DNA of 64,000 bases from Naegleria gruberi (GCA_000004985.1 GG738855.1), one strand, 5' to 3'. Counted from the first letter of the stretch, positions 338 to 39,648 are shown. Notes: a model not told the origin generated them from the letters alone. Made by a program: numbers and translations.

Positions 338-1093
338 ATGATGATGAATAACCAAGCAGCCAAGAAGGAAGAAAAGAAAAAGACTGCAGCTGTTATTTTG
401 AGCGGATGTGGATTTATGGATGGAAGTGATGTTGTTGAATCTGTTAGTGTTATTGTTGAATTGACAAGAAAAGGAATTGTTCCAAGATTCTTCTCACCAC
501 ACGAAGAAATTGATGAATCATACAATTATATTACAAAACAAATTGATTCAAGCGAAGAAAGATATATGCATAAGGAAAGTGCTCGTATTGCACGTGAAAA
601 GATTTTGAGCATTGACCAACTTCGTGCTGATCAATTTGACATGTTAGTTATTCCAGGTGGTAATGGAGTTGTTCGTAATTTGTCTAATTTTGAACAAGAA
701 GAATATAATGTTAATGAAGTTGAAGTTAATTCACATGTTGAAAAGGCCATTGTTGACTTTTTCAAACAAAAGAAACCAATTGGCTTTATGTCAAACTCTG
801 TTATTTTAGGTGCTAAGGCTTTGGGTAAAGTTTCAGGAAAGACTGGAAATGGTATTGCTGTTGCTTTGGGTAAGACTTTGGATCGAGTTTTTGTTGAAAC
901 TCTCATGACAAAGTTTGGTAATGAACTCTCTCAAGAAAGTGGTGATGCTGAAGTTGTTTGTACTGATTCTTCACATCGTATTGCTAGCGTTGCCAGTGTT
1001 TCTGCTGCTGGTACTGTTCAACCAAATGAAATTCATGCTGCTGCTAAGAATTTAATTGAAGAATTGATTGATTTGACCAAGAGGGAAGAATAA
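338..1093 (+). CDS. ES1/GATD3-like protein (DJ-1/PfpI class I glutamine-amidotransferase-like superfamily), single exon
   Basis: ATG at 338 (atgatgatgaat...). Translation AVILSGCGFMDGSDVVE...ESARIAREKI...MLVIPGGNGVVRNLSNF...KKPIGFMSNSVILGAKALGKVSG matches, from memory, the ES1 (C21orf33/GATD3) family signature (VAVVLSGCGVYDGTE...ESARIARGKI...PGGFGAAKNLS...KPIGLCC). Stop TAA at 1091-1093. Confidence 0.6.
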   Translation: MMMNNQAAKKEEKKKTAAVILSGCGFMDGSDVVESVSVIVELTRKGIVPRFFSPHEEIDESYNYITKQIDSSEERYMHKESARIAREKILSIDQLRADQFDMLVIPGGNGVVRNLSNFEQEEYNVNEVEVNSHVEKAIVDFFKQKKPIGFMSNSVILGAKALGKVSGKTGNGIAVALGKTLDRVFVETLMTKFGNELSQESGDAEVVCTDSSHRIASVASVSAAGTVQPNEIHAAAKNLIEELIDLTKREE

Positions 1094-1295: not shown

Positions 1296-2420
1296 ATGCT
1301 CTCAACCACCTCTCAGATTGACAAAGATAATGATAGTGGTGATGAATCGGAAGGCTCCTCCGAATTATTTAAAGGCTACATTAAAATTGATTCATCTAAC
1401 AAACATTGGGATATGGATCAAAAGCAAACTAAACTATTCAAGAAGGTCAAATGGGTCGCCACAGAAAAGGTTCATGGAGCTAATTTCTGCTTTTTTATGA
1501 ATGAAGATTTGGGTGGAAATATTCATATTGAATGTGCAAAGAGGAAATCAATTTTAAGTGAAAATGATCAATTCTTTTATTTTCAAAAATTGAAAGAGAG
1601 ATTAACAAGTAAATTGGAAAATATATTCAGAATGGTCAAGACAAATTATCCAGATCTGATTCATGTTTATTTATTTGGTGAAATATTTGGTGGATTTTAT
1701 CCAAATATGCCAAAACTAGAAGGAATTGAACAACCAGTTCAAACAGGTATATGGTATACAAATGATATTGAATTTTATGCATTTGATATTGCAATTCAAA
1801 AGAGTGATTTGATTCAAATTTATTTAGATTACGAAGTAACATTGGAAATATTCTCAAAAAGTCAACTTTTATATGCAGAACCTTTATTAATTGCAAGTTA
1901 TGAAGAATGTATGGATATGGATGTTAAATTTGACTCGAAACTTCCTAAAAAATTAGGAATGCCATCACTTAATGAATCAAATTATGCTGAAGGTGTTGTG
2001 ATAAAACCAATGAAAGAAATTAACATTTCTAAAAAAGGAAAATTAGAACGAGCAATAATCAAGAGGAAAATTCAAGAATTTTCAGAAAAGAAATATGAAC
2101 AAGCTGTTAAATGGTCAACTCCAACCTCCAATTCATCATCAAATTCCATTGATGAATTAGAAGTTATCAAATATGAAGCATTGGCTTGCATTACAGAAAA
2201 TCGATTGAATAATGCAATTTCTAAAATTGGAAATATCGACACCAAAAACAAAGTACAAATGAATCAACTACTCCAGGCCTATATTCAAGATGTATTTGAT
2301 GAATTGAATGAATCAGGATTTCAAATATCCTCTTCACAAAAATCACAACTTGAAGAAGTAATTACTTTGGAATCAAAAAAGATTATTTTCCAATATTTTA
2401 AAAAACTTCAATCCAAGTAA
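1296..2420 (+). CDS. Rnl2-family ATP-dependent RNA ligase (nucleotidyltransferase domain plus C-terminal domain)
   Basis: The ORF track starts at a TTG (1263); the first in-frame ATG is at 1296, in an aaaaaaATG context. Motif I is KWVATEKVHGANF (KxHGxN, as in T4 Rnl2 EKIHGTN), motif III is YLFGEIFGG, motif IV is AEGVVIKPMKE (EGxxxK) and motif V is ERAIIKRK (KxK). A roughly 150-aa C-terminal extension fits Rnl2 rather than DNA ligase or capping enzyme. Confidence 0.6.
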   Translation: MLSTTSQIDKDNDSGDESEGSSELFKGYIKIDSSNKHWDMDQKQTKLFKKVKWVATEKVHGANFCFFMNEDLGGNIHIECAKRKSILSENDQFFYFQKLKERLTSKLENIFRMVKTNYPDLIHVYLFGEIFGGFYPNMPKLEGIEQPVQTGIWYTNDIEFYAFDIAIQKSDLIQIYLDYEVTLEIFSKSQLLYAEPLLIASYEECMDMDVKFDSKLPKKLGMPSLNESNYAEGVVIKPMKEINISKKGKLERAIIKRKIQEFSEKKYEQAVKWSTPTSNSSSNSIDELEVIKYEALACITENRLNNAISKIGNIDTKNKVQMNQLLQAYIQDVFDELNESGFQISSSQKSQLEEVITLESKKIIFQYFKKLQSK

Positions 2421-2510: not shown

Positions 2511-3707
2511 ATGGAACAACACGATGATGAAGATGCAAAGATTCGTATTGGGGAAAATAATATGTTAAATCCCTTCTCAATTCTTCCACAAGATTTATTC
2601 TATGAAATTTTACCATTTTTATCTCCGATAGAGGTTTTGCTAACTTTTCGATTAATTTTTAAAAATCATCAATTTATTTCCAAACATTTATTCGAATATT
2701 ATAATGAAAAAACAAGATTATTGGATAGGCTGAAAATATCGGATCATATTAAACAGGAGAATAAGAATTTGTTGGAGTGTTTTGATGAATTTCTAAATTT
2801 GGAAAGCGATAAATATTTGAGGAGAAAATTTATTAAATTTGCATTTAGATATGAAATTTATGAATTTTCTAAAAGAGTTTACAATAGTAGAAAACAGAGC
2901 ACGGATTTAGACTTTTGTAATGAGATGGAATGGATTGAAAATGATATTAAATGTTACAATAATTTATTTCAATATGCGAGAAGAAAATGTAACCAAGAGG
3001 AAGAAGAAATTAACAAAGAAGACAATAATTATATTATTAATACCGAACAAAAGAAATCTGATGGATTATTTTCAAGTATTTTAAAGTTTTTTACTAATTT
3101 TGGAATTACACCTCCTGAAACCGAACCCACAAGTAGTACTCACAAACCTACTTGTGAATCGTCAAAATATGGAAATAACGATTACATAGTGAAAGTATTA
3201 CTAGAAGGATTTTCTGGCAGTTCAAAACACAAATTCCGTAATTATATTATTCAAAATTCTTCAAAGTTTGAAGATTATAGACATTTTGAGGATTTCTCTA
3301 CGAAAACTTATTATTTTGGAAATCTCCAGTCTAAGCTACAGTTGTGGAATATTTCAGTGTATAAATTTAATAGCCTCATTTCAGCATATTATAGAGGTAG
3401 TTTTCTAGTAGTGCTCATTGTTGATCCATTTGATGATCGGGAATTGGAGGGATTAAGTGAAAAGAAAAAATTAATTCTTGAAAATATTTCAAAAGAAGCA
3501 CAAATAGTTCTTGTAACAAAGAAAGAATGGGAAAATGGAAATAAGAGACTTCTTTCGAATGATAATGCTGATTTCATGGCATTTGATGAATTTAATAGTT
3601 TTCATATTGATATTTCAGACCCTTATGATATTGATAGCCCTCAATGTATTGTGCTTTATGCAATGTTATTGAAATATATCATTGCATACCAATTTGAAAC
3701 TAAATGA
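2511..3707 (+). CDS. hypothetical protein with N-terminal F-box-like motif
   Basis: The ORF track start (2463) is a TTG; the first ATG is at 2511 (aaaaaaaATGgaacaac). The N-terminus FSILPQDLFYEILPFLSPIEVLLTFRLIFKNHQFI fits the F-box consensus (LP.E.L..IL..L....L). The rest is not recognised. The 399-aa ORF is continuous. Confidence 0.4.
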   Translation: MEQHDDEDAKIRIGENNMLNPFSILPQDLFYEILPFLSPIEVLLTFRLIFKNHQFISKHLFEYYNEKTRLLDRLKISDHIKQENKNLLECFDEFLNLESDKYLRRKFIKFAFRYEIYEFSKRVYNSRKQSTDLDFCNEMEWIENDIKCYNNLFQYARRKCNQEEEEINKEDNNYIINTEQKKSDGLFSSILKFFTNFGITPPETEPTSSTHKPTCESSKYGNNDYIVKVLLEGFSGSSKHKFRNYIIQNSSKFEDYRHFEDFSTKTYYFGNLQSKLQLWNISVYKFNSLISAYYRGSFLVVLIVDPFDDRELEGLSEKKKLILENISKEAQIVLVTKKEWENGNKRLLSNDNADFMAFDEFNSFHIDISDPYDIDSPQCIVLYAMLLKYIIAYQFETK

Positions 3708-3752: not shown

Positions 3753-6474
3753 CTAATTGAGAGCAAAACCTCCTCCTAAATGTACCCTAGTTCCTTCTCC
3801 AGGAGTAACTTTGTAAGATGGTTCTCCGGCCATTTCCTCACCTCCTAAAGTTTGTGATTGAGATCGTTCCTTTTCCAAGTAGAAATCCTTCTTTGTTTGT
3901 AAGAATTTCTTCTTGGTATCTTTGAGTTCTCTGTTAAGTCTTTCCTTTTCATACTCTTGTTGTTTATCCTTGTATTGTAAAAAGTTAAGTTCAGAAGCAA
4001 GAGATTGAATTTGAGAATTCTTCTTTCTCAAAGTCTCTTGATAAATATTAAGCTGTTCTGCAACTTCTGGACCTGGTTGTCTTGAAAGGATAGCCTTGAG
4101 CTTTTTGTTCATTTCCTCCTTTTCTTGAACAATTAAATCCTTTTCCATAACTTCCTCAGTTTTGGCAATCAATCTCTTTTGGAGCGTTTGGGTTTTAAGA
4201 ACAAGTTCATATTGTGTAGGATCGCTTCCTTCTAACTTTCTCCATCTGTGAACGTTCATTGGATTTTGAAGTTCTTCTGAGAGAGCTTTGACCTTGTTTC
4301 TTTCTTCGAGTAATTGTTTCTTCAACTCATGATTCTCTCTTTGGAATTCCTTAATCTTGTAAATGTGCTTCTTCAAGACTTGTAATTGTCTTGTGAGATC
4401 TTTGATTTTCAGTTTGAGAATCTTGATGTCACCCAACCGTTCTCTATATTGAATAGCTCCCTTGTCTAGTGTACTGTTTTGAAGTTGAATCTTTTCATAG
4501 AGGAGTGCAATTTCGTCGTTTCTTCTAATCAACTGAGTACCTAGAACATCTCTTTCACTAACAACAGCATCATAGTCCTTTTGTTGTTTTCTTCTTTCAT
4601 TATCAGCTTGCTTAATGATTTGAGTGAGCCTATAGTTTTCAGACTCGTGAGATTTGATGATTCTTTCCTGTTCCTTTTGCTTTTCTTCCAACAATTTAAT
4701 TTCTTCCTTCATCTTTTCCTTCTTCTTCAGGATTTGTTTAGCATTGTATGTTTCATCAACGAGAGCCTTTTCTCTACTGGTAATTTCATCCTTAAGTTGA
4801 GTAATTTGTTGTTCCATAATCTTGAACTGTTTCTTCATTTCTTCTGCCTCTTCGTGAGCCGCAATAAGAGCCTTACTCTTAGTGTTTCTTTCGCTTCTCA
4901 CTGATTCATATAGAGATTGTTGAGTCTTCAATTTTTCTTGAAGTTCAATAATCTTCTTTTGAAGCTCATTCAATTCAACAGTCTTGATTCTTACTTCTTC
5001 CAGAGCTTGTCTGTATTTCAGGTCAGAATCTGAAGCCTCCGAAGCATATCTTTCTCTTTCCTTCTCCAGTGTGTAGGTAAGTTGTCTGTACTTTTCTGTT
5101 TGCTTCCTTTCAGCAACAATTTCAGCTTTCAATACCTTTGAATTTCCTTCCAGAATTTTAATGTTATCCTGTTTCTTAGTCTTTTCCTTTTTCATGAGAA
5201 CCAAACTCTTACTGAGGTAATTTCTTTCTGCTTTGATTTTTTCTCCAGCTTCCAATTGTTGATCTTTTTGATTATTTAATTCCTCTATGACCTTGTTCAA
5301 ATGGATAATTTCTTGATTGAGAGATTCTTTAGATCTTTCAATTTCTTCCTTTTCATTTTCAACAATCTTCTTCTTTTGTTGGAGAGTTTGATAGCTTTGA
5401 TGCCATTGATTCTTTTCATCAATAACTTCTTTAACTTTTGTTTCCAACAACTTCTTTTCGAAATTCAATGTTTGATCGTTAGCCTTCAACCTAGAAACTT
5501 CAGCAATTAGTCCAACTCTTTCCTTTTCATCTGTATCAATGGTAGACTTGTATTGCTCTATTCTCTTTTGGAGAGAATTAATAGTTTGTTCCATATCCTT
5601 GATAACCTTTTCCGAATCTGTCACTCTTGTTTGTTCCTTCTTAATATTCTCATCTTTCTTTAAGAGTTCTTGAGCTTTAGCTGTGAGAAGTTGTTTCGAT
5701 TCTTTAAGTTCCTTTTCTGATTTTTCCTTTTGCTTGATTGTTTGATCTAACTTGTTCTTTGTTTCGTTGAGCTGTTCATTGATACTTTCAATAACAGTTA
5801 GCAATTTCTTCTTTTCTTGATTTACATCATTGATCTGTAAGAATAGTAGGTTATTAGAATTAATACTAGTACAATTTTTTGAAACTAACCTGAATTTGCA
5901 TATTCGATAATTCATTGTTAAGGGAAATTACTTGAGCATTTTTCATTTCCTTTTCTCTGGCAAGCTCCTTTTTTACCTTTTCCAACTCTGGTGCAGAGGC
6001 ATCTTGAACTGTATTACCGGTTCCTTGATTTGCAATTTTTGTCAGCTCCGAAATTTCTTTGGTAAGTTTTTGAACAGTTTCCTTAGCTTTGGCTTCTTTT
6101 TCATGTGATGCGTTTACTAGTTTCCATGCTTTATCAATTTCCTTTTTTAAAATTGCGATGGTGTTTTGGTCTTCCTTAGATAAATTAATTGCTGTTTGTA
6201 CCTTGATGGCATTTGCTACTATTTGTTGAGTAAGTTCCTCACATCTCTTCATAAGTCTCTTCTCATTTTCGTGACATCTCAATAAATTACGATGTAATTT
6301 TTCATATTCAATCCTAAAATTTTCCAAATGATCTTTTCCAGCCAATTCCATCAAAACTTCTTGAAAATCTCTTTCAAGTGTTTCAAAGGCTGTTTTGGTC
6401 AAACTAAGGACCATCTTTTCTTGATCATTCTCCTTTCCATCTCCTTGTTGGTTGGTCGAACCATCTGATGACAT
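3753..6474 (-). CDS. CFAP58: CFAP58 (CCDC147) homologue, cilia/flagella-associated coiled-coil protein; 2 exons (6474..5890, 5834..3753), about 888 aa
   Basis: The minus-strand ORFs 5866-6474 and 3753-5915 are joined by a 55-nt intron (about 5835-5889; donor GTTAGT, acceptor TTACAG) and are frame-consistent (585 + 2082 nt). The N-terminus FETLERDFQEVLMELAGKDHLENFRIEYEKLH matches, from memory, the CFAP58 N-terminal signature (FEDLEKDFQEVLTELSG..LEKFRVEYERLH). The C-terminus RQPGPEVAEQLNIYQ...GGGFALN matches RQPGPEAAEQLKLY...GGGF. The whole protein is coiled-coil. Confidence 0.75.
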
Positions 6475-6791: not shown

Positions 6792-9553
6792 ATGAGTAAA
6801 TCAGAAGGCTCTGACACAATCCAAGTCTATTGTCGTATTAGACCAGTGAGTGAGAGTCATTGCCAATATTCAATAGAACAAACATTTGATAATGCAGTAC
6901 TACATTTTAAAAAACCAAGATCGGATGAAGCAGGATATATTAATAATACAATTGAAAATTATGAATATAAATACACCGGAATATTTGATCAACAAGTGGA
7001 TCAAGATGAAATATTTGATAGATGTGCTAAGAAATGTGTTCTTAGTGCTTTAGAAGGATATAACTCAACAATTTTTGCTTATGGTCAGTCTGGAAGTGGT
7101 AAAACTTATACAATGACTGGTGGAGATGGAAGCTATGAAAAAAGAGGTATCATTCCTAGAGCTATTTCACTTCTTTTTGAGGAATCGTCGAATGAAGGAA
7201 AACGAGATCGAGAATATACATTTTCAGTTTCATATATGGAAATTTATAAAGGATTTGGATATGATTTATTGAATGATAAAAGAGATTTAATGGATATTAA
7301 GGAATTACCGTAAGTTTAAAATGATGAGGAAATATATTAAAGAAATAATTTAGGAAAGTATCGGCTAGAATTGATACAAACGGAGCTGTTGTTTTCAAAA
7401 ATATTCAAACCTTTCCAACTAAAACAGAAGAGGATGCTTTGGATAAATTATTTATTGGTGATAAAAACAGAGTGTTGAGGTAAGAGATTTAATTTTAGTT
7501 TTGAATTTATTCATTCATTTTCAGTGAAACTATGCTCAATGAGTCCTCTACTCGTTCTCACTGTATATTTACTGTTAATATTGAATCAAAGGAACCTGGA
7601 TCATCAGTTGTAAAATCCTCAAAACTTCACATGGTAGATTTGGCCGGTAGCGAACGGCCTAGTAAGACAAATTCAACAGGCAAAACTCTGGAAGAAGCCA
7701 AGAGTATCAACTTGTCTCTGTATTTTTTGGAACGTTTTATTATGAGTATCAGTGAAGGTAATGACCACATTCCTTGGAGAGATTCATTAATCACCACTGT
7801 CCTTAAAGATAGTATTGGTGGTAATTGTAAAACTATTATGATTTCGACGATTAATCCTTCATATAGACACTTGTCGGAATCTGTTTCAACATGTAAATTT
7901 TCAATGAGAGTAGCTAGCATTAAACAAAATGCTGTCATTAACGAGAAAGTCGATCCATATGTTCAAATTAGAAAACTGAAAAAGAAAGTTGAGGAATTGG
8001 AGGAAGAACTGAAATATTATAGAGGTGAAGGGCAGAAAAGAGAAGCACTGGATGGAAACGAAAAAGCAATTATTAAGGAGAGAGTGGATGAATTTTTGGA
8101 TGATTTGGATAGAGACAGTTCTCTGAATTTGGGAGGAGACCATTTGAGAATTAGGGAGGCCTTCTTGGTTTTAAAATCCTATGTTTTGGATCTCAGGAAA
8201 AGGCCAAAGGAAGCTACAGCGTCGAAAGAGAAACCAGTACCTCAAAAAACGAAACCTCAGCCAATTCAGCAAGCCCCTCCACAACAACAAGTTGCTCTCT
8301 CAGAAGATATCCAAGAGAAGCTCAAAAACTTATCGGTTGCCATTGAGCTCAGAGATATTGAAATTGATATCCTTGTCTCCATGTTAAATAAGAAACAAAA
8401 GAACATGTCTGAAGTATCGATACAGACAGAAATTAGCCCATCGAGTCAAATTGTTACAACCCTTCCACCACCATCACCCAAGAGATCAATGCTTCATACT
8501 TTCACAAACGGAAATACATCTTCTATGGAATCAATAGCAAGTATGCATAGAAGTGTAGAACGAAAACCTATTCAAGATATTGTGACAAAAGAAGTTATTA
8601 AGGAAAGAATTCGAGAGAAGGAAAAATCCATTCTTTCCCAAACAGGTGATAATGCACCAAAATTCTCCAATGAAAAGATTGCCATCCTAGCCGATGCAAC
8701 TGGAATGAGGAGAAGAGCAGAAGCGTTCGAGTTATTTAGACAAAAATATAGAAATTACAATGTCATTGAAAAGAACAAGGAAGCTTTGGGAGAAAAGATT
8801 GCCTTTGCAAAGGAGATGGCTAGAGATATCAATGATAAGAGATCTGTCATTGAAGTGTTAAAGAACAGACTCATTCAACTAAGAACTGAAAGAGCTGCTC
8901 AAAATCTTGTAAATAAGAATGCTGAAACAGATGAAGAATTCCCAGAAGAAATTGAACTTAAAAAAGAGTTGTTAGCTGAAAAGGATAGACATCAAGATCA
9001 ATGTAATCAACTCAAGGAATTAAAGAAGGAAATTGAACACTTGAAGAGAGTATTGGAAATGAGCAGAGTGAGACTTCAACAAGATTTTGAAAATTGGTAC
9101 AAGACAACTAATCCATACCCAGAAGAAGATTCACCAGAAGAATCCATATCCTCTCAAGTTTCTGCAACAATACGAAGTAATATTTCACAACAGTATAGTA
9201 ATAGCAGTATTCCTGTTTCTACACTCAGTTTTGATTCCTCCTCTTCTCCAATATCTTCAACTCTTTCCACAACTACCTCCTCCTCTTCTAGGCCAACTGT
9301 AAAACAAGCTTGGGGAGTTGATAGTATTTCACCTAAAAACAATGTCAGCTCTAATTTAATGACACTCCGAAACAATAATCAACTACCACCACAGCAACAG
9401 CAACAAGGATTTAGTGAAGACAATCCATTCTTTAAGAAACTGAAAGAACATGTTGAACAGTCCTCAACTCTCTCAAGTGCAGCTGTTAATTCATCTGCCA
9501 ATACTAATTCCTCAAAGAGAGTTTCACTTCTCCAACAAGCTTACAAACTTTAA
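6792..9553 (+). CDS. kinesin-9B (KIF6-like) N-terminal motor kinesin; 3 exons (6792..7309, 7354..7479, 7525..9553)
   Basis: Start ATG at 6792 (aaaaaaATGagtaaa); the ORF-track start at 6774 is a TTG. The introns are 7310-7353 (GTAAGT..TAG) and 7480-7524 (GTAAGA..TCAG); splicing restores the motif GDKNRVLRETMLNESSTRSHCIF. The P-loop is FAYGQSGSGKTYTMTGG..GIIPRAI and switch II is LHMVDLAGSERPSKT. The family signature INLSLYFLERFIMSI is the kinesin-9 LSL..LE pattern; HIPWRDSLIT and the C-terminal RVRLQQDFENWY match, from memory, KIF6 (INLSLHYLEQVIIAL; QKEFEVWW). The C-terminal half is coiled-coil and S/Q-rich. Confidence 0.75.
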
Positions 9554-10816: not shown

Positions 10817-12253
10817 ATGCTAAATCCCAACCAAACGATTGGAAGAAGAACACCCTCCATCATCACACCCTCTGCATCATTTCAAGATATATCAGAGTTA
10901 CGGAATCAAGAAGAAGAACATGATTTTGAAATTTTGACAACTAGCAATGCAAATTCATCAAATCAAAAATTACATTTTAAAATTATTGTATTAGGAGATT
11001 GTGAATGCGGAAAAACGAATTTAATTAATCGATATATATCAAATTCATATGAAAGAAAGCATGTGCCAACTGTCATTGAATCTTATTCGACAAATGTCAG
11101 CAGTAATGGACAAGATTTTCATATAGAATTGTGGGAATTGAGTAGTTTAAAGAATTATGATGAACTGAGACCGCTTTCTTATTCAAATGTTGATTTATTT
11201 TTTCTATGTTTTGACATTTCAAAACCTTCAACTTTACAATCAATTAAAAAGAAATGGATTCCAGAAATTCAGAAATATTCACCAGATGCTTCATTTTTAA
11301 TTGTTGGATGTAAATCTGATCTAAGAAGAAAATATAGACTTTCCCTAAATGCAAATAGTTTAGAACAAATGAAAGAATTGGACGAATTGACTAGTAGCGA
11401 TGTAGGATCTGAATTTTCACCTTCTAGTTCTAGAACTAGTTCAAATGCTAATTCTAGAAGTAATTTTAGTTCACCAATGCAATCTCCTATTCGTGATTCA
11501 AGTCATTATCACCAACCGTTGGGATATTCAGCAAGTAGTGGTGGTGGATTTGCTCATCACGATCCACGTAGAGATTCTCATATTAGTATAAGTAGTAGTT
11601 TGAGTTCGACGAGTAGTAATAGTCAAACAAAATCTACTAGTAGTTCATCATTTAAATTTAAGAGAAATATTGGGAGTGTTCTATTGAGTGCTATTGGAAA
11701 GAGTGGTTCGAAACAACAACTCACCGACGCACAATCATCACCAATAAGTGATACTTTTGAATCTGCTTCACCACAACAACAGTCAACTATGAATACAAGT
11801 CAGAATAGTGGTGCTAGTAGTTCTACATCATTTGTTTTGGAAATTTCAGATATTGAACTAACAGTTCCACAAAATTCTCCAAAAACTGCTAGGTCTAGAG
11901 GTAAATCAACAACTGCACGATCCAGGTCAATGCCAACCAATGATTGGAAGGACTATATTGATTCTAGAAAATCAGTAGCAACTCCTAGCACTCCAATTGA
12001 TGAAAATTCATTTAAAACACCAAGAGAAACATTCATGGAACAAGATTGTGATAATTCACCACGAGATAATTCAATCGCTGAAAATTGTGTAACATTTGTA
12101 GAAGCTAGGAGATTTGCAACCAAGGTTGGTGCTTGTTGCTATATTGAATGCAGTGCCAAAACCACTCTAGATTTCAAGTCAGTTATCAATGATGGTTTTA
12201 CTCAATTCTTGGAAAATAGAACAAAACGAAAGAAATCTTGCTTAATAATGTAA
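10817..12253 (+). CDS. atypical Rho-family small GTPase-like protein with degenerate catalytic motifs, large Ser-rich insert and C-terminal CAAX (CLIM)
   Basis: ATG at 10817. KIIVLGDCECGKTNLI has the Rho P-loop GDGAxGKT replaced by GDCECGKT. The Rho-diagnostic YDELRPLSY is present but is preceded by LWELSSLKN where DTAGQE is expected, so the DxxG motif and the catalytic Gln are lost. The G4 motif is CKSD, and the G5 motif ECSAKT lies about 260 aa further on after a Ser/Thr-rich low-complexity insert. The protein ends KKSCLIM (CAAX). Confidence 0.6.
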   Translation: MLNPNQTIGRRTPSIITPSASFQDISELRNQEEEHDFEILTTSNANSSNQKLHFKIIVLGDCECGKTNLINRYISNSYERKHVPTVIESYSTNVSSNGQDFHIELWELSSLKNYDELRPLSYSNVDLFFLCFDISKPSTLQSIKKKWIPEIQKYSPDASFLIVGCKSDLRRKYRLSLNANSLEQMKELDELTSSDVGSEFSPSSSRTSSNANSRSNFSSPMQSPIRDSSHYHQPLGYSASSGGGFAHHDPRRDSHISISSSLSSTSSNSQTKSTSSSSFKFKRNIGSVLLSAIGKSGSKQQLTDAQSSPISDTFESASPQQQSTMNTSQNSGASSSTSFVLEISDIELTVPQNSPKTARSRGKSTTARSRSMPTNDWKDYIDSRKSVATPSTPIDENSFKTPRETFMEQDCDNSPRDNSIAENCVTFVEARRFATKVGACCYIECSAKTTLDFKSVINDGFTQFLENRTKRKKSCLIM

Positions 12254-12337
12254 ATATAATCTTGCTTATTATGTTCAAATATTGCTTAATAATGTAAATA
12301 TAAAATAATCTTAATAGATTTCTTAGATTTTTATAAA

Positions 12338-26107: not shown

Positions 26108-28343
26108 ATGAATGGCGTCAAAAAAATGCTCGCATCAACCTCAACAGCTTTCCCTCAATCATCATCATTCGATGGTAACAATAATGAGGAAAATTCAAAG
26201 CAATCTTTTCGGAAGTTGAGAATTGAGGCACCACCAATAGTACAATATGAATTTGATAGAAGAGGAGGAGGAAGTACATCAAAACAACTTCCTCCACTAT
26301 TAGCAAATCAACCAAGAACCATTTCCAATGGTGATATTCTCTCCACTCCAACTAACAGGAGGTTATCTCCCGTGCTTAAGAGATCGATGAGTGCATCACC
26401 ATCAACAGAAATGGGACTTGAATCACCGGTCCTTCTAATTTCTAAACCTTTTGAAAGTGAAAATGATGGCTTTGAGCCGGGAGAGGCATCAGAAGCTGAA
26501 TTGTTGGAAAGAGGTGCACTCTTTTATTCACCACTTTTCATTTAGGAACAGATTAACAGTAGGACCTGAGATTAGGTCCCCAACACCTCCAAGGCTAAAG
26601 AGAGGGTATTCAAATAGATCTCTCAAAGAAATACCTACAGAATTACTCCCAACCATTGTCTCAGTATCATCACCAACATCATCTAATCTTTCACCCTCTC
26701 CACTATTAGAGGAAGTCAGAAGACAACAAGGTGACCTTTCCATTCCTATTTCTCCTTCTTCAAACTCATCACTTCCTCCAACACCACCATCAATTAAAGG
26801 AAGACTCTCGAAACAACCTTCATTTACAGATCCTAATGCTAGAAGAATGAAAAGTTCGGGAAGTTCAACTGGTACCTTTCTTACGGAAGTTTCCTTAAAG
26901 TCTATGGATAGTTTTTTCATTCCAAGCCCTCCTAAACAAGTTCATTTACTTCCAGATTTTCTCTTTTCCCCCCAAACAGAAAATATTGAAAATTGCAGAT
27001 TTCCTTCTGATTTTAATAATCCTCAATTTCCAAGAAATAGACCCCTAAATCCAAAATATGTGTTGAACAAGACTCTCATACTATATTTCCCTTCTCTCTT
27101 CTCAGATTACACTAATTCAGAACATAGAATTCAGTTTAATGACTTATTTTTGACAGAGCAAAATCAATCGATACTAATTGACTCTTTTTGGTGGTTTTTC
27201 TTGACTGTATTTTCAAAGGATTATCTTTTAAGAAAAGCAGTTCAATATTACGAGTACATGATAGAGAAGGAGTTGGAGAAGAGAAAAGAAAAGAATAACT
27301 TTTTCCTAAGAAAGGAACAACACAAAGTTTACAAAGAGAAAGGAGAGAATTGGGCAAACCAAGTTTATAAGAAACTTTTAGGAGAATTACCTGCCATTGA
27401 AAATAGAATTTCTAATAATTATGCAGAGCTTGTTGTTAAATTTATTACTCACAGATCTTACACCATCAAGACAAATATACAACTTGATTTGGATGATATA
27501 TTTATTGAGGTTATTTCGAAATCTGTTTTTCTTGCTTATGGGTTAAATTTTCCAGATTGTCATGAAATATTCGAAACAGAAGCGTTTCAAGCAAGAGTAG
27601 CGAGACAATTTCAATTGTGGTGTTTTGGTGTCTGTACCATTAATTTACCATTTCTTGACACCTTATGGATGTTTAAAATGGAGTTGAAATCACCTCCCTA
27701 TGTAAGGGATGAGCATTCTCTATCTCCAAAGCAAAGATTCAAGAGAGCTATCCAAGCTGTCAGAGTTGGTTACAATGAAAGTATTGTTAAAACAAAGGAA
27801 GTGAGAGAAGAATTAGAAAAGGCATTGGATAACCTTGAATATAATGATTATTCACCAGCCTACAATTTATTTGAGATGTTTTTTGAAGATGAATCTGAAT
27901 TTGCAGCAATTAGAAAACAAAACAAAAGGTTGCAAATTATGGAGGCGTTCACTTCTGGAGCTACTCTTAAAGAAGAAGAATTGAATGAAATTATTGAATG
28001 TGACGATAGGGATGAAGAGCTATTTATTGAACTTCAAATATTAAAAGAAAAGAAGGAAAAGAACATATTTGCCAAACCTCTTCCTTCTAAAGATATCAAG
28101 GAAATAGCTGCTGTCAGAGAGAAAGCTTGGTATGAAATGGGTGAAGGAACAACTAAAACGCTTGTTACAAATATTAAACAAGTGAAAACACTAGGAACCT
28201 TTAAAACCTATTCACACAGCAAAAAATCAAGCCCTCTAGTTTCTCAATATTTGACCTTACTTCGTCACAATAAGGCAACTCAAAGAAAGCAAGAACGATT
28301 TGAAAAGAGAATGGAATTAAGAAAAAATTACATGAAGGAATAG
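26108..28343 (+). CDS. hypothetical protein, S/P-rich N-terminal half and structured C-terminal half; internal frame transition unresolved
   Basis: ORFs 26108-26545 and 26451-28343 overlap in different frames around 26500-26560, so there is either a very small intron or a 1-nt assembly error. The N-terminal half is low complexity with many SP/TP sites; the C-terminal 400 aa is non-repetitive (e.g. QLWCFGVCTINLPFLDTLWMF) with no recognised family. Confidence 0.4.
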
Positions 28344-35300: not shown

Positions 35301-36391
35301 ATGAGTGATTTGGATGCTGGAGAGGACATGTTTGATGATTTTTTAAATTCCCGTCTTGAGGATGATGAAACCATAGGCCATGATCAATCTGTTACTGATG
35401 CTATCAATGATGATGAATTTGAGAAATTATTGAATGAATCTGAGACAGAGACTGTACAAAATGAACCGGAAAAGGAATCAATCAATGTTGATTTATCATC
35501 AGCAACAACAATAACTGCATCCACTGAATCCGTCATTGAAAAGAAGGAAGAACAAGTTAAAGATGATGAGGAAGTCATTGAATTTTCGTGGAGCGATGAA
35601 GACTATAGCAAAGACGAAACCGATCAAGTTAATCAAAATAATGCAATTTCAGAAATTAAAATTCAACAAGAAAAACCAGTGACAATTGAAAAGTCAGAAA
35701 ATAGGGAACTCTAATTTAACAAATAATGCTAGTAATAGTACTACTACTGATCAGGGAACATCAGTTAAAAGTGAGGAAATAATTGAAACTAGAATTAGTG
35801 TAATGATTTCCGACGTTTTGAATAGATTTGGAAAAGTAATTGACATTGATAGTAGATCGGAAGCTATTGAGAATAGAATTAAACATTTGAAAGAAGAAGA
35901 GGTAGAGTCTGAGTATAGTTTTGGAAAATTAAAAGGTAGTATTCAGAGAAAATTGGTAGTTCTCGAATGTGCTGTAGAGAATTTGTGTGTTCTTGTGGAA
36001 AAGAATGTACAAAGAAAATTGAAATTGAGAGAATCTAAACAGGTTTTGAAAGAGCAATTGAGAGCAAACATTGAAAAATACTCTGAAAAGTGCACTCAAT
36101 TAGATGAACAGAAAGAGAAATACTCCAAGATGGAAAATTTATGGGAAAAGGATAGAAAGAACCTTGTAGATCTCATTGAAAAATTGAAGCAACAAGTAGA
36201 AAGCAAGGATCCTGAAAATGAATTCCTCAAAACAATGAAAATTCCAGAAGCTCCTAAAGCAACAGACTCTGAAGACAATACTCTTTCTAACCTTACTAAA
36301 TCTCTCCTATCACTTCCAGAAGCTTGGAAATCCTCTAATCCATCCGATTCTAATCCCCAATCTTCCAACACATCCTCTAGCTCTTCAGCCG
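35301..36391 (+). CDS. hypothetical acidic/coiled-coil protein, truncated by assembly gap (possibly the 5' part of the downstream acyltransferase gene)
   Basis: The ATG ORF 35301-35714 (acidic, D/E-rich) overlaps ORF 35686-36391 (a TTG artefact start, coiled-coil, Ser-rich end) in another frame at an A-rich stretch near 35690-35714. The frame is open into the N-run at 36392. Confidence 0.35.
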
Positions 36392-36903
36392 NNNNNNNNN
36401 NNNNNNNNNNNNNNNNNNNNNNNNNNNNNNNNNNNNNNNNNNNNNNNNNNNNNNNNNNNNNNNNNNNNNNNNNNNNNNNNNNNNNNNNNNNNNNNNNNNN
36501 NNNNNNNNNNNNNNNNNNNNNNNNNNNNNNNNNNNNNNNNNNNNNNNNNNNNNNNNNNNNNNNNNNNNNNNNNNNNNNNNNNNNNNNNNNNNNNNNNNNN
36601 NNNNNNNNNNNNNNNNNNNNNNNNNNNNNNNNNNNNNNNNNNNNNNNNNNNNNNNNNNNNNNNNNNNNNNNNNNNNNNNNNNNNNNNNNNNNNNNNNNNN
36701 NNNNNNNNNNNNNNNNNNNNNNNNNNNNNNNNNNNNNNNNNNNNNNNNNNNNNNNNNNNNNNNNNNNNNNNNNNNNNNNNNNNNNNNNNNNNNNNNNNNN
36801 NNNNNNNNNNNNNNNNNNNNNNNNNNNNNNNNNNNNNNNNNNNNNNNNNNNNNNNNNNNNNNNNNNNNNNNNNNNNNNNNNNNNNNNNNNNNNNNNNNNN
36901 NNN
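36392..36903. other. assembly gap (512 N)
   Basis: A run of n from 36392 to 36903. ORF-track proteins composed of X across this region are artefacts. Confidence 1.
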
Positions 36904-37614
36904 TTGCATAAATATTTGGGATTTGATTCCAAGAGGACATTGATGGGAAAGATTTTCCGTACAGCAACTGCAATTGTTGTTAAATCAAATCCATACTGGA
37001 AACTCTCTGTTAAACATGTCAACAAGAATAGTTTACCAACACAAGAGAAGAAAACTATTTTTGTTTGCAACCATCAAAGTAATATGGATCCATTTGCATT
37101 AATTTGTGGTGCTTTACCAATTGAAACTAAATGGGTTTCAAAGAGTGATTTGTTTGCAATTCCATTTGCTGGAAGAATGATGTCAAATGCCGGAGATGTT
37201 CCAATTGTTTTCAAGAGCAAGAAAATGGATGATATGAGTACTGACAGAGATTCTGTTAAATCTGCCATGAATAAGCTCAAAGAACATTTACGTAATGATA
37301 ATGCTGTATTTTTCTTCCCTGAAGGAAGAAGATCTTCCACACCTGACCAACTTTTGGAATGGAAGAAGGGTGCCTCAATTATGAGTTTAGAAACAGGAGC
37401 TGACATTGTTCCAATTGGTTTGTATGGTACATTCACTATGTGGGGTATTGAAGAAGCTCTTCCAACACCAGGTAAAGCAGCAATTGTTGTCGGAGAACCA
37501 ATTAGTGTTCAAGGAATGACTTTGGAAAAGGATGTTGAAACTCTCAATGAAAAAACAAGAGAAGCTGTTGCTGAATTGTTGCAAAAAGCTATGGCTGAAT
37601 ATGCTAAAATGTAA
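36904..37614 (+). CDS. 1-acylglycerol-3-phosphate O-acyltransferase (LPAAT/AGPAT family) catalytic domain, 3' part after gap
   Basis: Immediately after the gap the frame encodes the acyltransferase motif I IFVCNHQSNMDPF (NHxxxxD), motif III FFPEGRRSST (FPEG-R) and motif IV IVPIGLYGT. It ends at TAA 37612-37614. Length and frame across the gap are unknown. Confidence 0.6.
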   Translation: MHKYLGFDSKRTLMGKIFRTATAIVVKSNPYWKLSVKHVNKNSLPTQEKKTIFVCNHQSNMDPFALICGALPIETKWVSKSDLFAIPFAGRMMSNAGDVPIVFKSKKMDDMSTDRDSVKSAMNKLKEHLRNDNAVFFFPEGRRSSTPDQLLEWKKGASIMSLETGADIVPIGLYGTFTMWGIEEALPTPGKAAIVVGEPISVQGMTLEKDVETLNEKTREAVAELLQKAMAEYAKM

Positions 37615-37799
37615 AGAACCTTAATCAATTTACACAGTAAATTTCCATACAATAGAATGATATAATATCTCGTCACTCTTTATTTGTACCTCAACATGGT
37701 TACATTTTCTCAAAGAGAGTGGAAAACCGATTAGAACTGACCAGAAGATGTCGAGAAGTTTTCCCGCCAATTTAACAACAAAGCAAATAAAATACTAAA

Positions 37800-39648
37800 A
37801 TGCCATCCAGCACAACAACAACCGTGGAGAACATTATCAAAGTCAAAACCTTTGCTCATGCTTTGAATCAACAGGACACGGATTTTGCAATATTATTTAG
37901 ACATGTATATTGTTTATTTAATAGAACACTGTGTTACTCACATGATACTGTTTGTCCCAAAGGTTTCTTCATTACAGATGCTGTTGGCAAAAGTATTAAT
38001 TTGTTTTTCGTGTTGGATACACCAAGATTAGCTTCCGAAGCTAACTTACTCATTGAATCATCTAACCATCTCCTTCATGGATTTGTAAATATCATGGTTA
38101 GGATTACATCACAGAGTTTCACTTCTAATAGTATTAATAATAGTTGTAATATGAACATTCAACACAACAATACAAATAATAATAACTCATTACGGCCCAG
38201 CAACGACAGAGTTGCCATTGTTCCATTCATCGACGAAGATCATCAACAACAGGATCCTTCAATGAAACTTTTCGAAAACTCAATCTTTTCTACTGACATT
38301 AGTCTGAAAACGTTTTGTGAAGAGTATATTAGAGCTGTTAATAACAAGGCAGCTGTTCAACACATTCTGGGATTCTTCAGAGAAATTTCAGAATCTATTG
38401 GCTCTTCTGATCGATTCAAGATTGAAATCTTTAAGAATTGCACCTGCAGATCATTTGTTGGTGATTTTTATACAGTTTCTAGAGATATACTGAGGTATGG
38501 TTGAAATTAATTTCAATTTTATTATAATATTGCTTTCTATTAGCATTTGTAAGGTTGCATCTTTTGATAAATCTGCAAAGAAAGGATTATCTAAAGAACA
38601 AGTTGATTACGTAAATAGTATCAAACAAGATAGGCCATTCTATACCTTAATGTTAAAGATGGATCGTCTTATTAAAGATGTTGTAAATCCTCTATTCGAA
38701 TTTATGAAGTTTTGTCATAGAAAAGCAGATTGTTCTATATCACATCTCCTTTACAAGTATTGTATCAAGTTCAAAATAACCTCAGTTTCCCCTCAACAAA
38801 AGAATTCAAATTCTACATCTACAGGTCCTTACATGTCTGAATCTGAGGAGAGCGAATCTCCTACTGTTTACATACCAGATGTACAAACAGAAGTGAGAGA
38901 ATTAACCTTTCCAAAGAGCTCTCATCTCTACAAACAACTTCCTTCAGATCCAAACACAAGAAAATCACAAATAGAAAAAGATGTATTCAGGTTGGGAGCC
39001 CTCTTTTTAGCCTTTGTTACTGGATCTAAGGAAATTGGAGAAAATACAGTCGACTCTGTTTCTGAAATGTTAAAGCAGTTGAGAATGAGTGTAGATTATT
39101 TGAGACAAACACATGTTCAATTTGAAAATATGCTCATAACCAAAAAGTGTGGAGATGATACGAAAATCTACCTTATGAGTGAGAGGTTGGCTCATTTAAC
39201 AGCCCTTCATTATAGCCTTTCAACATTTGAAAAACTGGTTTCTGAAATGGTGGAGCAAAAAACATGTACCTTGAAACAAATGTTACTAATGGTTGAAAAG
39301 TCTGCCATGGACAAGATGATAGAGAATTTCCGTGACCAGTCATTTGAAGAGAAAATGACCAGTTGTGAACGAATCTCAAACTCAGTCCAGGCAGTATTGG
39401 GAAAGGATTCAGAAAAAAAGAAACAGATTAATGAAAGAAGTAGGATGATTTTGGGAGATTGTACAAACTCGAGCTTTATAACACCAGACTCACCCATGAC
39501 AATTTCTACAACTCCAACCCACAAGAGGAAATTTTCTGATACAACTGTTCAGTATTTCTGTTCACAGAGCAAGATACCTGCAAATAAGGTTGTAAAACGA
39601 GAAAACTTAGAGAATTATCCAAGAAGTGCAATAATAAATAGAAAATAA
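37800..39648 (+). CDS. hypothetical protein; 2 exons (37800..38494, 38544..39648), about 600 aa
   Basis: ATG at 37800 (ctaaaATGcca). A 49-nt intron (GTATGG at 38495; acceptor TATTAG at 38543) joins ORF 37800-38504 to ORF 38497-39648 in frame (..DILR|SICKVASFDKS..). No family is recognised. Confidence 0.35.

What the first reader, a model, noticed from the sequence alone, without database searches (positions are those of the whole stretch)
1296..2420. Intact Rnl2-family RNA ligase encoded in a eukaryotic nuclear locus
The ORF carries all the covalent nucleotidyltransferase motifs in the right order and spacing: KVHGAN (motif I Lys), FGEIFGG (III), EGVVIKP (IV) and IIKRK (V). It also has a C-terminal domain of the size seen in T4 Rnl2 and kinetoplastid editing ligases. 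Outside kinetoplastid mitochondrial RNA editing, Rnl2-like ligases are sporadic in eukaryotes; canonical tRNA splicing uses RtcB or Trl1-type enzymes. The N-terminal 30 aa is Ser/Asp-rich with no obvious organellar presequence, so a nuclear/cytoplasmic nick-sealing RNA repair role is plausible. The gene is flanked by ordinary nuclear, intron-containing genes, which argues against contamination.
Basis: partly seen in the sequence, partly recalled or inferred. Interest (0 to 1): 0.7.

Follow-up and report, generated by a model that had tools for sequence, protein, structure and literature searches.

The report
Known Naegleria gruberi Rnl2-type RNA ligase
The ORF is a genuine, intact, host-resident RNA-joining enzyme gene of the amoeba Naegleria gruberi, but a 2015 paper already listed this exact protein as one of five Rnl2-family ligases in that organism, so it is a correct but not new observation.

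Summary
Observation confirmed. Window 1296-2420(+) is an uninterrupted 374-aa ORF. It matches Pfam RNA_ligase (E 6.5e-21) plus T4_Rnl2_C (E 1.5e-10). All nucleotidyltransferase motifs are present in order, and 19 of the 23 T4 Rnl2 functional residues I recalled and checked are retained, including Lys58 (= T4 Lys35) and the C-domain Arg303/Asp332. The AlphaFold model (pLDDT 88) best matches T. brucei REL1 and full-length T4 Rnl2.

The window is Naegleria gruberi nuclear DNA. The protein is 100% identical to XP_002679917.1 (NAEGRDRAFT_64622). Orthologues exist in N. lovaniensis, N. fowleri and Willaertia, and the two Naegleria species share its neighbourhood. Codon usage is host-like, and the next identifiable gene downstream (CFAP58) has a canonical intron, so it is not contamination.

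It belongs to a compact clade of cellular Rnl2 ligases found patchily in eukaryotes (Heterolobosea, bdelloid rotifers, Anaeramoeba, Acanthamoeba) and bacteria. This clade is distinct from both the phage and the kinetoplastid editing enzymes.

Unciuleac & Shuman (RNA 2015) already name this accession among five N. gruberi Rnl2-family members; none has been characterised. Most likely function: ATP-dependent sealing of 3'-OH/5'-PO4 nicks with an RNA 3'-OH strand, outside the mitochondrion. The physiological substrate is unknown. Novelty: already known. Interest: low.

The parts
1296..2420 (+). Complete intronless CDS (374 aa plus TAA stop) of N. gruberi Rnl2-family RNA ligase XP_002679917.1 / NAEGRDRAFT_64622
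   Evidence: ORF. 100% identity to P0001, with accessions. Collinear over the whole length with orthologues and bacterial homologues and with TIGR02307 positions 1-323 of 326.
1296..1367 (+). Acidic, Ser/Thr-rich, disordered N-terminal tail (aa 1-24); not presequence-like
   Evidence: pLDDT below 50 for aa 1-20. 7 D/E against 3 K/R in the first 30 aa. Three of the four heterolobosean orthologues also have acidic N-termini; the N. lovaniensis model is longer and was not assessed.
1368..2105 (+). Nucleotidyltransferase (adenylyltransferase) domain, aa 25-270; the Pfam PF09414 match covers aa 52-256 (nt 1449-2063)
   Evidence: Foldseek best hit is TbREL1 1xdn, E 1.3e-18, TM 0.74 normalised to the target.
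1464..1487 (+). Motif I, EKVHGANF; Lys58 (nt 1467-1469) is the predicted AMP-accepting nucleophile and aligns with T4 Rnl2 Lys35
   Evidence: E57, K58, H60, G61 and N63 are invariant in 32 homologues.
1533..1550 (+). Motif Ia, CAKRKS (K82/R83 = T4 K54/R55)
   Evidence: R83 is invariant.
1671..1694 (+). Motif III, LFGEIFGG (E129 = T4 E99)
   Evidence: G128 and E129 are invariant.
1773..1790 (+). Motif IIIa, FYAFDI (F163/D164 = T4 F119/D120)
   Evidence: Both residues are invariant.
1986..2009 (+). Motif IV, AEGVVIKP (E232 = T4 E204; K237 = T4 K209)
2052..2072 (+). Motif V, AIIKRKI (K256/K258 = T4 K225/K227)
   Evidence: Both lysines are invariant.
2106..2153 (+). Flexible Ser/Asn-rich interdomain linker (aa 271-286)
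   Evidence: pLDDT below 50 at aa 278-284. This stretch varies in length among orthologues.
2154..2417 (+). All-helical C-terminal domain of the T4 Rnl2 type (aa 287-374); the Pfam PF18043 match covers aa 297-359 (nt 2184-2372); R303 and D332 align with T4 R266 and D292
   Evidence: Four helices are predicted at aa 287-373. Foldseek aligns 358-364 columns to full-length T4 Rnl2 2hvr/2hvq.

Best explanation
The ORF encodes a catalytically competent ATP-dependent polynucleotide ligase of the Rnl2 family, resident in the Naegleria gruberi nuclear genome.

Inferred mechanism, by homology with T4 Rnl2:
1. Lys58 attacks the alpha-phosphate of ATP to form ligase-(lysyl-N)-AMP plus PPi.
2. With help from the C-terminal helical domain, AMP is transferred to the 5'-PO4 at a nick in a duplex.
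3. The 3'-OH of an RNA strand attacks the adenylylated 5' end, closing the phosphodiester and releasing AMP.

The protein has no organellar presequence, so it most likely acts in the cytosol or nucleus as a stand-alone nick sealer. Candidate substrates are broken duplex RNA or RNA-tipped nicks in DNA.

Shown here: family membership, intact catalytic residues, the fold, host residency and conservation across Heterolobosea. Inferred only: enzymatic activity, substrate preference, location and physiological role.
For: - Domain architecture is PF09414 plus PF18043. TIGR02307 'RNA ligase, Rnl2 family' aligns end to end, and PHROG 548 gives E 1.7e-44.
- 19 of the 23 T4 Rnl2 functional residues I recalled and checked are retained: Y5, E34, K35, H37, N40, K54, R55, F65, F66, E99, Q106, F119, D120, S170, E204, K209, K225, K227, R266, D292, with D135 conservatively replaced by Glu. 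Most of them are invariant in 32 homologues.
- The AF2 model has pLDDT 88.2. Its best PDB matches are TbREL1 and full-length T4 Rnl2, at E about 1e-18. Rnl3, Rnl5, Trl1, DNA ligases and capping enzyme score 1e-7 or worse.
- Orthologues are found in N. lovaniensis, N. fowleri, a further Naegleria assembly and Willaertia, forming a clade with 99% bootstrap support. The DJ-1-like and CFAP58 genes lie nearby in both other Naegleria species.
- GC3 and codon usage fall within the range of neighbouring genes.
- The N-terminus is acidic and disordered here and in three of the four heterolobosean orthologues.
- The accession is listed as an Rnl2-family member in PMC4408790.
Against: - No biochemical, expression or localisation data exist for this protein. 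The only paper in the library that cites the accession merely lists it.
- The TIGR02307 score (173.6 bits) is below that model's equivalog cut-off of 197.15.
- Four T4 positions differ: R33 to T56, T39 to A62, R155 to I199, K189 to Y230. From my own recollection, Thr39 contacts a ribose 2'-OH on the 3'-OH strand in T4 Rnl2, so sugar specificity could differ.
- Localisation was judged from composition only; no targeting predictor was available.
- Bacterial members of the clade have no conserved neighbour that would point to a pathway.
Confidence: 0.85

Rival explanations
1. It is a mitochondrial RNA-processing ligase related to the kinetoplastid editing ligases REL1/REL2, inherited from a common ancestor of Discoba (the group that holds both Heterolobosea and Euglenozoa).
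For: By sequence, the best solved-structure match of the catalytic domain is TbREL1 (E 1.5e-19; Foldseek E 1.3e-18). Heterolobosea and Euglenozoa are both Discoba (established taxonomy). The Acanthamoeba homologue is annotated 'RNA editing ligase' by its source.
Against: TbREL1 falls outside the whole Naegleria/rotifer/bacterial clade and is about equally distant (26-33% identity) from its eukaryotic and bacterial members. The N-terminus is acidic, not presequence-like, in this protein and in three of its four heterolobosean orthologues. The C-terminal domain is of the T4 Rnl2 type. From my own knowledge, heterolobosean mitochondrial editing is C-to-U substitution, which needs no ligase. The Diplonema study also found no supported link between a Naegleria Rnl2 and the RELs (PMC4599027).
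Confidence: 0.05
2. It is mainly a DNA-repair enzyme. It would seal nicks where a repair polymerase or primase has left a short ribonucleotide tract (RNA 3'-OH joined to DNA 5'-PO4), for example after damage from desiccation, encystment or radiation, rather than repairing RNA as such.
For: T4 Rnl2 and the Rnl5 enzymes need RNA only on the 3'-OH side and accept a DNA 5'-PO4 strand and a DNA template. Shuman's group explicitly raises this role for both the Rnl2 and Rnl5 nick sealers (PMC4408790). Deleting the Rnl5 ligase sensitises D. radiodurans to ionising radiation (PMC5397189, title and abstract). Many hosts in the clade tolerate dormancy or desiccation: bdelloid rotifers, Naegleria, Willaertia, Acanthamoeba, Scytonema/Tolypothrix/Coleofasciculus and myxobacteria (plus my own knowledge of their biology).
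Against: The evidence is purely correlative. The host list was not tested against a background distribution. There are no expression data. Thr39 is replaced by Ala, so sugar discrimination is unknown.
Confidence: 0.25
3. The ORF is not a functioning host gene. It would be a bacterial or viral contaminant, a very recent horizontal insertion, or a decaying pseudo-enzyme.
For: The family is mostly bacterial and phage-borne. The gene has no intron. Its distribution in eukaryotes is patchy.
Against: It sits about 200 bp downstream of a Naegleria DJ-1-like gene, and the next identifiable gene downstream is an intron-containing CFAP58 gene. Both of these neighbours lie in the same region in independently assembled N. 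lovaniensis and N. fowleri genomes. GC3 is 0.216 and the codon-usage cosine is 0.91, both within the range of neighbouring genes. Catalytic residues are conserved across the Naegleria-Willaertia divergence. The nearest bacterial homologues are only about 41% identical.
Confidence: 0.02

Closest known systems
Bacteriophage T4 RNA ligase 2 (gp24.1, RnlB; PDB 1s68, 2hvq, 2hvr)
   Same: Both have the same two-domain architecture: an NTase domain plus the signature helical C-domain (PF18043). All six motifs are present, and the C-domain Arg/Asp pair (T4 R266/D292) is retained. Foldseek aligns the full length at E 2.4e-18.
   Different: Identity is only about 27%. The Naegleria protein has an acidic N-terminal tail. 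It also has an insert of about 16 aa after motif III (PNMPKLEGIEQPVQTG) that T4 lacks, and a longer interdomain linker. It lacks the T4 insert before motif IV. It carries the substitutions R33T, T39A, R155I and K189Y. It is a cellular rather than a phage gene.
Trypanosoma brucei RNA editing ligase 1 (REL1/KREL1, PDB 1xdn)
   Same: This is the best sequence and structure match for the catalytic domain: about 30% identity, E 1.5e-19, TM 0.74 normalised to the target. It also has an insert after motif III.
   Different: REL1 is mitochondrial and part of the editosome. The solved chain lacks the C-terminal region, so that part was not compared. REL1 branches outside the clade that contains the Naegleria protein. 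The Naegleria protein shows no presequence.
Uncharacterised cellular Rnl2 clade (bdelloid rotifers, Anaeramoeba, Acanthamoeba 'RNA editing ligase', cyanobacteria, Chloroflexota, Myxococcota, Planctomycetota)
   Same: Members are 37-48% identical over more than 90% of the length, have the same architecture and share the EKVHGANF form of motif I. The protein is a member of this clade.
   Different: To my knowledge no member has been characterised, and my searches found no paper reporting one. The Naegleria/Willaertia proteins form their own subclade with 99% bootstrap support and carry the acidic N-terminal tail.
NgrRnl, the characterised N. gruberi Rnl5 nick-sealing RNA ligase (XP_002669268.1; PDB 5cot)
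   Same: It comes from the same organism and has the same expected chemistry (classic three-step ATP-dependent nick sealing that requires an RNA 3'-OH strand). The NTase folds are related (E about 3e-7).
   Different: It belongs to a different family. Rnl5 has a defining N-terminal domain and no C-terminal domain. Structural alignments show only about 16-18% identity.

Membership tests
Rnl2 family of ATP-dependent RNA ligases | Covalent nucleotidyltransferase domain with motifs I, Ia, III, IIIa, IV and V in order | tested here: met
   PF09414 E 6.5e-21. Motifs located at aa 57-64, 80-85, 126-133, 160-165, 231-238 and 253-259.
Rnl2 family of ATP-dependent RNA ligases | Motif I lysine nucleophile and the other catalytic side chains defined by mutagenesis of T4 Rnl2 (residue list recalled from the Shuman-laboratory papers, not re-read here) | tested here: met
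   K58 = T4 K35. E57, H60, N63, K82, R83, F93, F94, E129, Q149, F163, D164, S214, E232, K237, K256 and K258 are all retained. Four other positions differ: R33T, T39A, R155I, K189Y.
Rnl2 family of ATP-dependent RNA ligases | Signature all-helical C-terminal domain (T4_Rnl2_C), with equivalents of T4 R266 and D292 | tested here: met
   PF18043 E 1.5e-10, above the gathering score. Helices predicted at aa 287-373. R303 and D332 retained. Foldseek aligns 358-364 columns to full-length T4 Rnl2.
Rnl2 family of ATP-dependent RNA ligases | Score above the curated cut-off of the NCBIfam equivalog model TIGR02307 | tested here: not met
   173.6 bits against a cut-off of 197.15. The alignment is nevertheless end to end (positions 1-323 of 326), E 7.3e-51. 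I read this as a divergent subclade, not as exclusion from the family.
Rnl2 family of ATP-dependent RNA ligases | Three-dimensional fold closest to solved Rnl2 enzymes | tested here: met
   The five best Foldseek hits are TbREL1 and T4 Rnl2 (E 1e-18 to 4e-14). The next families score 1e-7 or worse.
Rnl2 family of ATP-dependent RNA ligases | ATP-dependent self-adenylylation and sealing of 3'-OH/5'-PO4 nicks in duplexes with an RNA 3'-OH strand | not testable with these tools
   This needs recombinant enzyme assays. No paper in the library reports them for this accession.
Kinetoplastid RNA editing ligases (REL1/REL2) | Specific phylogenetic grouping with REL1/REL2 | tested here: not met
   TbREL1 branches outside the whole clade and is 26-33% identical to all its members alike. 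Caveats: neighbour-joining tree, a single REL sequence, catalytic domain only.
Kinetoplastid RNA editing ligases (REL1/REL2) | Mitochondrial targeting | tested here: not met
   The N-terminal 30 aa hold 7 D/E against 3 K/R and are predicted disordered. Three of the four heterolobosean orthologues also have acidic N-termini; the N. lovaniensis model was not assessed. This rests on composition only; no dedicated predictor was run.
Rnl5 family (DraRnl/NgrRnl) | Defining N-terminal domain fused to a C-terminal NTase domain, with no C-terminal appendage (PMC4408790) | tested here: not met
   The architecture is the reverse: a short disordered N-tail, then the NTase domain, then the helical C-domain. 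NgrRnl structures match only at E about 3e-7 over about 245 columns.
ATP-dependent DNA ligases / mRNA capping enzymes | NTase domain followed by an OB-fold domain carrying motif VI | tested here: not met
   No Pfam hit to DNA-ligase or capping-enzyme families at E 0.01 or better. The C-terminal domain is helical, not an OB fold. Foldseek hits to DNA ligases and capping enzyme score 4e-5 or worse and cover the NTase domain only.

The most novel reading that the evidence does not exclude
The heterolobosean gene represents an uncharacterised subfamily of cellular Rnl2 ligases. The subfamily would have been exchanged repeatedly between bacteria and free-living eukaryotes capable of dormancy (Naegleria/Willaertia, Acanthamoeba, bdelloid rotifers, Anaeramoeba, anaerobic ciliates). 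Its conserved Thr-to-Ala change at the 2'-OH-contacting position of motif I would go with a substrate preference different from T4 Rnl2. One possibility is sealing ribonucleotide-tipped DNA nicks during recovery from desiccation, encystment or radiation.
Probability: 0.1. Interest if true: 0.5.

Novelty: already known. Interest (0 to 1): 0.2.

Why it matters
As a discovery it matters little, because the gene is annotated and was catalogued as an Rnl2-family ligase in 2015. Its value is as context. N. gruberi carries an unusually large set of RNA ligases: the 2015 paper counts five Rnl2, seven Rnl1, one Rnl5 and two RtcB, and only the Rnl5 enzyme has been characterised. This protein belongs to a clade of cellular Rnl2 enzymes for which I know of no characterised member. 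A simple biochemical study would therefore fill a real gap. It would also test whether nick-sealing RNA ligases serve RNA repair or RNA-patched DNA repair in free-living eukaryotes. The N. fowleri orthologue might have minor interest as a parasite-specific enzyme, since I know of no close human counterpart; I did not test that.

Tried and rejected
- Contamination or recent HGT: rejected on shared neighbourhood, codon usage and intron-containing neighbours.
- DNA ligase or capping enzyme: rejected by Pfam and fold search.
- Specific kinship with kinetoplastid REL1: not supported in a neighbour-joining tree of the catalytic domain.
- Guilt by association in bacteria: the neighbourhoods in Tolypothrix, Polyangium and a Chloroflexaceae genome share nothing. 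The small upstream genes in two of them are unrelated to each other (BLASTP E 22) and have no convincing Pfam hit. A fourth look-up (P0048) found no record.
- Anti-phage defence models (PADLOC): no hit.
- RNA genes near the locus: no tRNA and no Rfam hit in the whole window.
- A literature search for the T4 Rnl2 residue list and a broad multi-organism search returned nothing useful. The T4 residue roles therefore rest on my recollection of Yin et al. 2003, Nandakumar et al. 2004 and Nandakumar et al. 2006.
- I could not retrieve the other N. gruberi Rnl2 paralogues with the available tools, so their relationship to this gene is untested.

Full report
**What is in the sequence.** Window 1296-2420 on the + strand is an uninterrupted ORF of 374 codons ending in TAA. 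An in-frame TAA at 1260-1262 makes the ATG at 1296 the first possible ATG. Motifs Ia (CAKRKS, aa 80-85) and IIIa (FYAFDI, aa 160-165) are also present.

**Family assignment.**
- Pfam gives two hits above the gathering score: RNA_ligase PF09414 (aa 52-256, E 6.5e-21) and T4_Rnl2_C PF18043 (aa 297-359, E 1.5e-10).
- NCBIfam TIGR02307 'RNA ligase, Rnl2 family' aligns end to end (model positions 1-323 of 326, E 7.3e-51). Its score of 173.6 bits is below the strict equivalog cut-off of 197.15.
- PHROG 548 'RNA ligase' gives E 1.7e-44.
- Among solved structures, the best sequence matches are T. brucei REL1 (1xdn, E 1.5e-19) and T4 Rnl2 (2hvq, E 1.6e-11, with both domains aligned).

**Catalytic residues.** I fetched T4 rnlB from NC_000866 and aligned it with the ORF and eight homologues. 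I then mapped the T4 residues that, to my recollection of the Shuman-laboratory mutagenesis and structures, matter for function.
- Retained: E34, K35, H37, N40, K54, R55, F65, F66, E99, Q106, F119, D120, S170, E204, K209, K225, K227 and the C-domain pair R266/D292. Their Naegleria equivalents are E57, K58, H60, N63, K82, R83, F93, F94, E129, Q149, F163, D164, S214, E232, K237, K256, K258, R303 and D332.
- Different: R33 to T56, T39 to A62, R155 to I199 and K189 to Y230.
- The Thr39-to-Ala change is shared by the whole clade, except Willaertia, which has Ser.
- In a 32-sequence alignment the catalytic positions are invariant.

**Structure.** An AlphaFold2 model built on that alignment has a mean pLDDT of 88.2. 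The only disordered stretches are aa 1-20 and the linker at aa 278-284. The C-terminal domain is predicted as four helices at aa 287-373. Foldseek against the PDB ranks TbREL1 first (E 1.3e-18, TM 0.74 normalised to the target). Full-length T4 Rnl2 comes next (2hvr/2hvq, E 2.4e-18 to 1.4e-16, 358-364 aligned columns). The high rmsd for those full-length hits probably reflects a different orientation of the two domains; I did not check this. Rnl3, the Naegleria Rnl5 enzyme, Trl1, DNA ligases and capping enzyme follow at E 1e-7 or worse.

**Whose gene it is.** The protein is 100% identical to a 'predicted protein' of Naegleria gruberi on a 613-kb contig. Its accessions are EFC47173.1, XP_002679917.1, NAEGRDRAFT_64622 and UniProt D2V706. 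Evidence that the window is ordinary Naegleria nuclear DNA:
- It encodes CFAP58, two KIF9-like kinesins, a kinesin-5, eIF3c, a DEAD-box helicase, a Ras/Roc GTPase, Armc9, an RWP-RK protein and others.
- CFAP58, the next identifiable gene downstream, has a canonical 55-nt GT-AG intron at 5835-5889 on the minus strand.
- The ligase gene's GC (0.292), GC3 (0.216) and codon usage (cosine 0.91 to the pooled neighbours) lie within the range of the surrounding genes.

**Conservation in related species.** Orthologues exist in N. lovaniensis (62% identity), N. fowleri (53%), another Naegleria assembly (62%) and Willaertia magna (48%). In N. lovaniensis and N. fowleri the DJ-1-like and CFAP58 genes lie within a few kilobases of the ligase gene. 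Their orientation is inverted there, and three extra genes are intercalated. Willaertia shows no shared neighbourhood. The gene was therefore present before Naegleria and Willaertia diverged and has been kept under purifying selection. Contamination is excluded.

**Wider relationships.** A full HMMER scan of 1.84 billion cluster representatives finds 2,499 relatives at E 1e-3 or better and 293 at E 1e-30 or better. The nearest non-heterolobosean relatives (43-48% identity) are bdelloid rotifer proteins, plus metagenomic sequences, two of which lie on contigs that look eukaryotic. Next, at 37-42%, come Anaeramoeba, Acanthamoeba and cyanobacteria. Chloroflexota, Planctomycetota and Myxococcota homologues are 33-38% identical.

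A neighbour-joining tree with 200 bootstraps recovers the Naegleria+Willaertia clade at 99% and the rotifer group at 96%. The deeper nodes are unresolved, at no more than 55% support. When TbREL1 is added (catalytic domain only) it branches outside the whole clade and is 26-33% identical to all members alike. T4-like phage Rnl2 proteins are about 25-31% identical.

The protein thus belongs to a compact clade of cellular Rnl2 ligases, distinct from both the characterised phage and kinetoplastid enzymes. Whether the eukaryotic members reflect ancient inheritance with losses or several transfers cannot be decided from these data. A 2026 study independently scores Rnl2 as laterally acquired in anaerobic ciliates (PMC13198582).

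[quoted passage not shown] They list XP_002679917.1 first among five Rnl2-family members, alongside seven Rnl1 members, the Rnl5 enzyme NgrRnl (the one they characterise) and two RtcB. A search of the library for all accessions of this protein and its N. fowleri orthologue returned only that paper. The Diplonema RNA ligase study used a different Naegleria PF09414 protein, XP_002674912.1. The identification is therefore already published; the biochemistry and biology are not.

**How it most likely works.** By homology, Lys58 is adenylylated by ATP. AMP is then passed to the 5'-PO4 at a duplex nick, a step for which T4 Rnl2 needs its C-domain (my recollection). Finally the RNA 3'-OH attacks to seal the nick. 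I did not find a mitochondrial-type presequence: the N-terminus is acidic in this protein and in three of its four heterolobosean orthologues, so a cytosolic or nuclear location is the better guess. Physiological substrates are unknown. Shuman's group suggests two possibilities for Rnl2 and Rnl5 nick sealers: repair of breaks in duplex RNA, or sealing of RNA-patched DNA nicks. The second idea gains some weight from the radiation sensitivity of a D. radiodurans Rnl5 knockout (PMC5397189). Bacterial gene neighbourhoods gave no further hint, and no defence-system model matched.

**Verdict.** Interest is low (0.2). The most novel reading not excluded is an uncharacterised, horizontally mobile subfamily of cellular Rnl2 ligases with altered sugar specificity, tied to damage recovery in dormancy-capable organisms. 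I give that about 10% probability.

Noticed in passing
window 3753-6474 (-): A CFAP58 orthologue lies in two ORFs joined by a canonical 55-nt GT-AG intron (5835-5889). It is 84-89% identical to its N. lovaniensis and N. fowleri orthologues. In those species it also lies near the ligase gene, but in the opposite orientation.
   Followed up: partly
window 3753-6474, 7532-9553, 26451-28343, 42939-43820, 50322-51845: Several cilium-associated genes share this one 64-kb window: CFAP58, two KIF9-like kinesins, an FWWh-domain protein and Armc9. This may be a loose cluster of flagellar genes in an organism that builds flagella on demand. I did not test it against chance.
   Followed up: no
window 2511-3707 (+): The gene directly downstream of the ligase has an N-terminus that looks F-box-like by eye and only a weak Ras-family hit (E 0.005). 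It has no tblastn match in the corresponding loci of N. lovaniensis or N. fowleri, where a 577-619 aa gene with no Pfam hit occupies that position. It is either fast-evolving or lineage-specific.
   Followed up: partly
window 338-1093 (+): The upstream gene is a DJ-1/PfpI-like protein that scores below the Pfam gathering cut-off. It has orthologues that are 73-74% identical in the other Naegleria species, about 6 kb from the ligase gene and inverted.
   Followed up: partly
L002 8001-9338 (N. fowleri orthologue P0004): The N. fowleri ligase is 445 aa long because of Thr-rich and Asn/Ser-rich low-complexity inserts inside the NTase domain (between motifs I and Ia, and before motif III). N. gruberi lacks these inserts.
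   Followed up: no
window 1476-1478 (Ala62): Where T4 Rnl2 and TbREL1 have Thr in motif I (EKIHGTNF / EKVHGTNF), the cellular clade has Ala; 90% or more of the 32 aligned homologues do, and Willaertia has Ser. From memory, this Thr contacts a 2'-OH on the 3'-OH strand in T4 Rnl2, so sugar specificity may differ.
   Followed up: partly
window 35686-37614: This is the lowest-GC stretch of the window (0.262 at 36001-38000). Long ORFs overlap on both strands here, and the + strand ORF carries an acyltransferase domain only at its C-terminal end.
   Followed up: no
window 12234-12303: A 24-nt tandem repeat of about 3 copies and 70% matches overlaps the 3' end of the Ras/Roc gene (10817-12253) and extends past its stop codon.
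   Followed up: no
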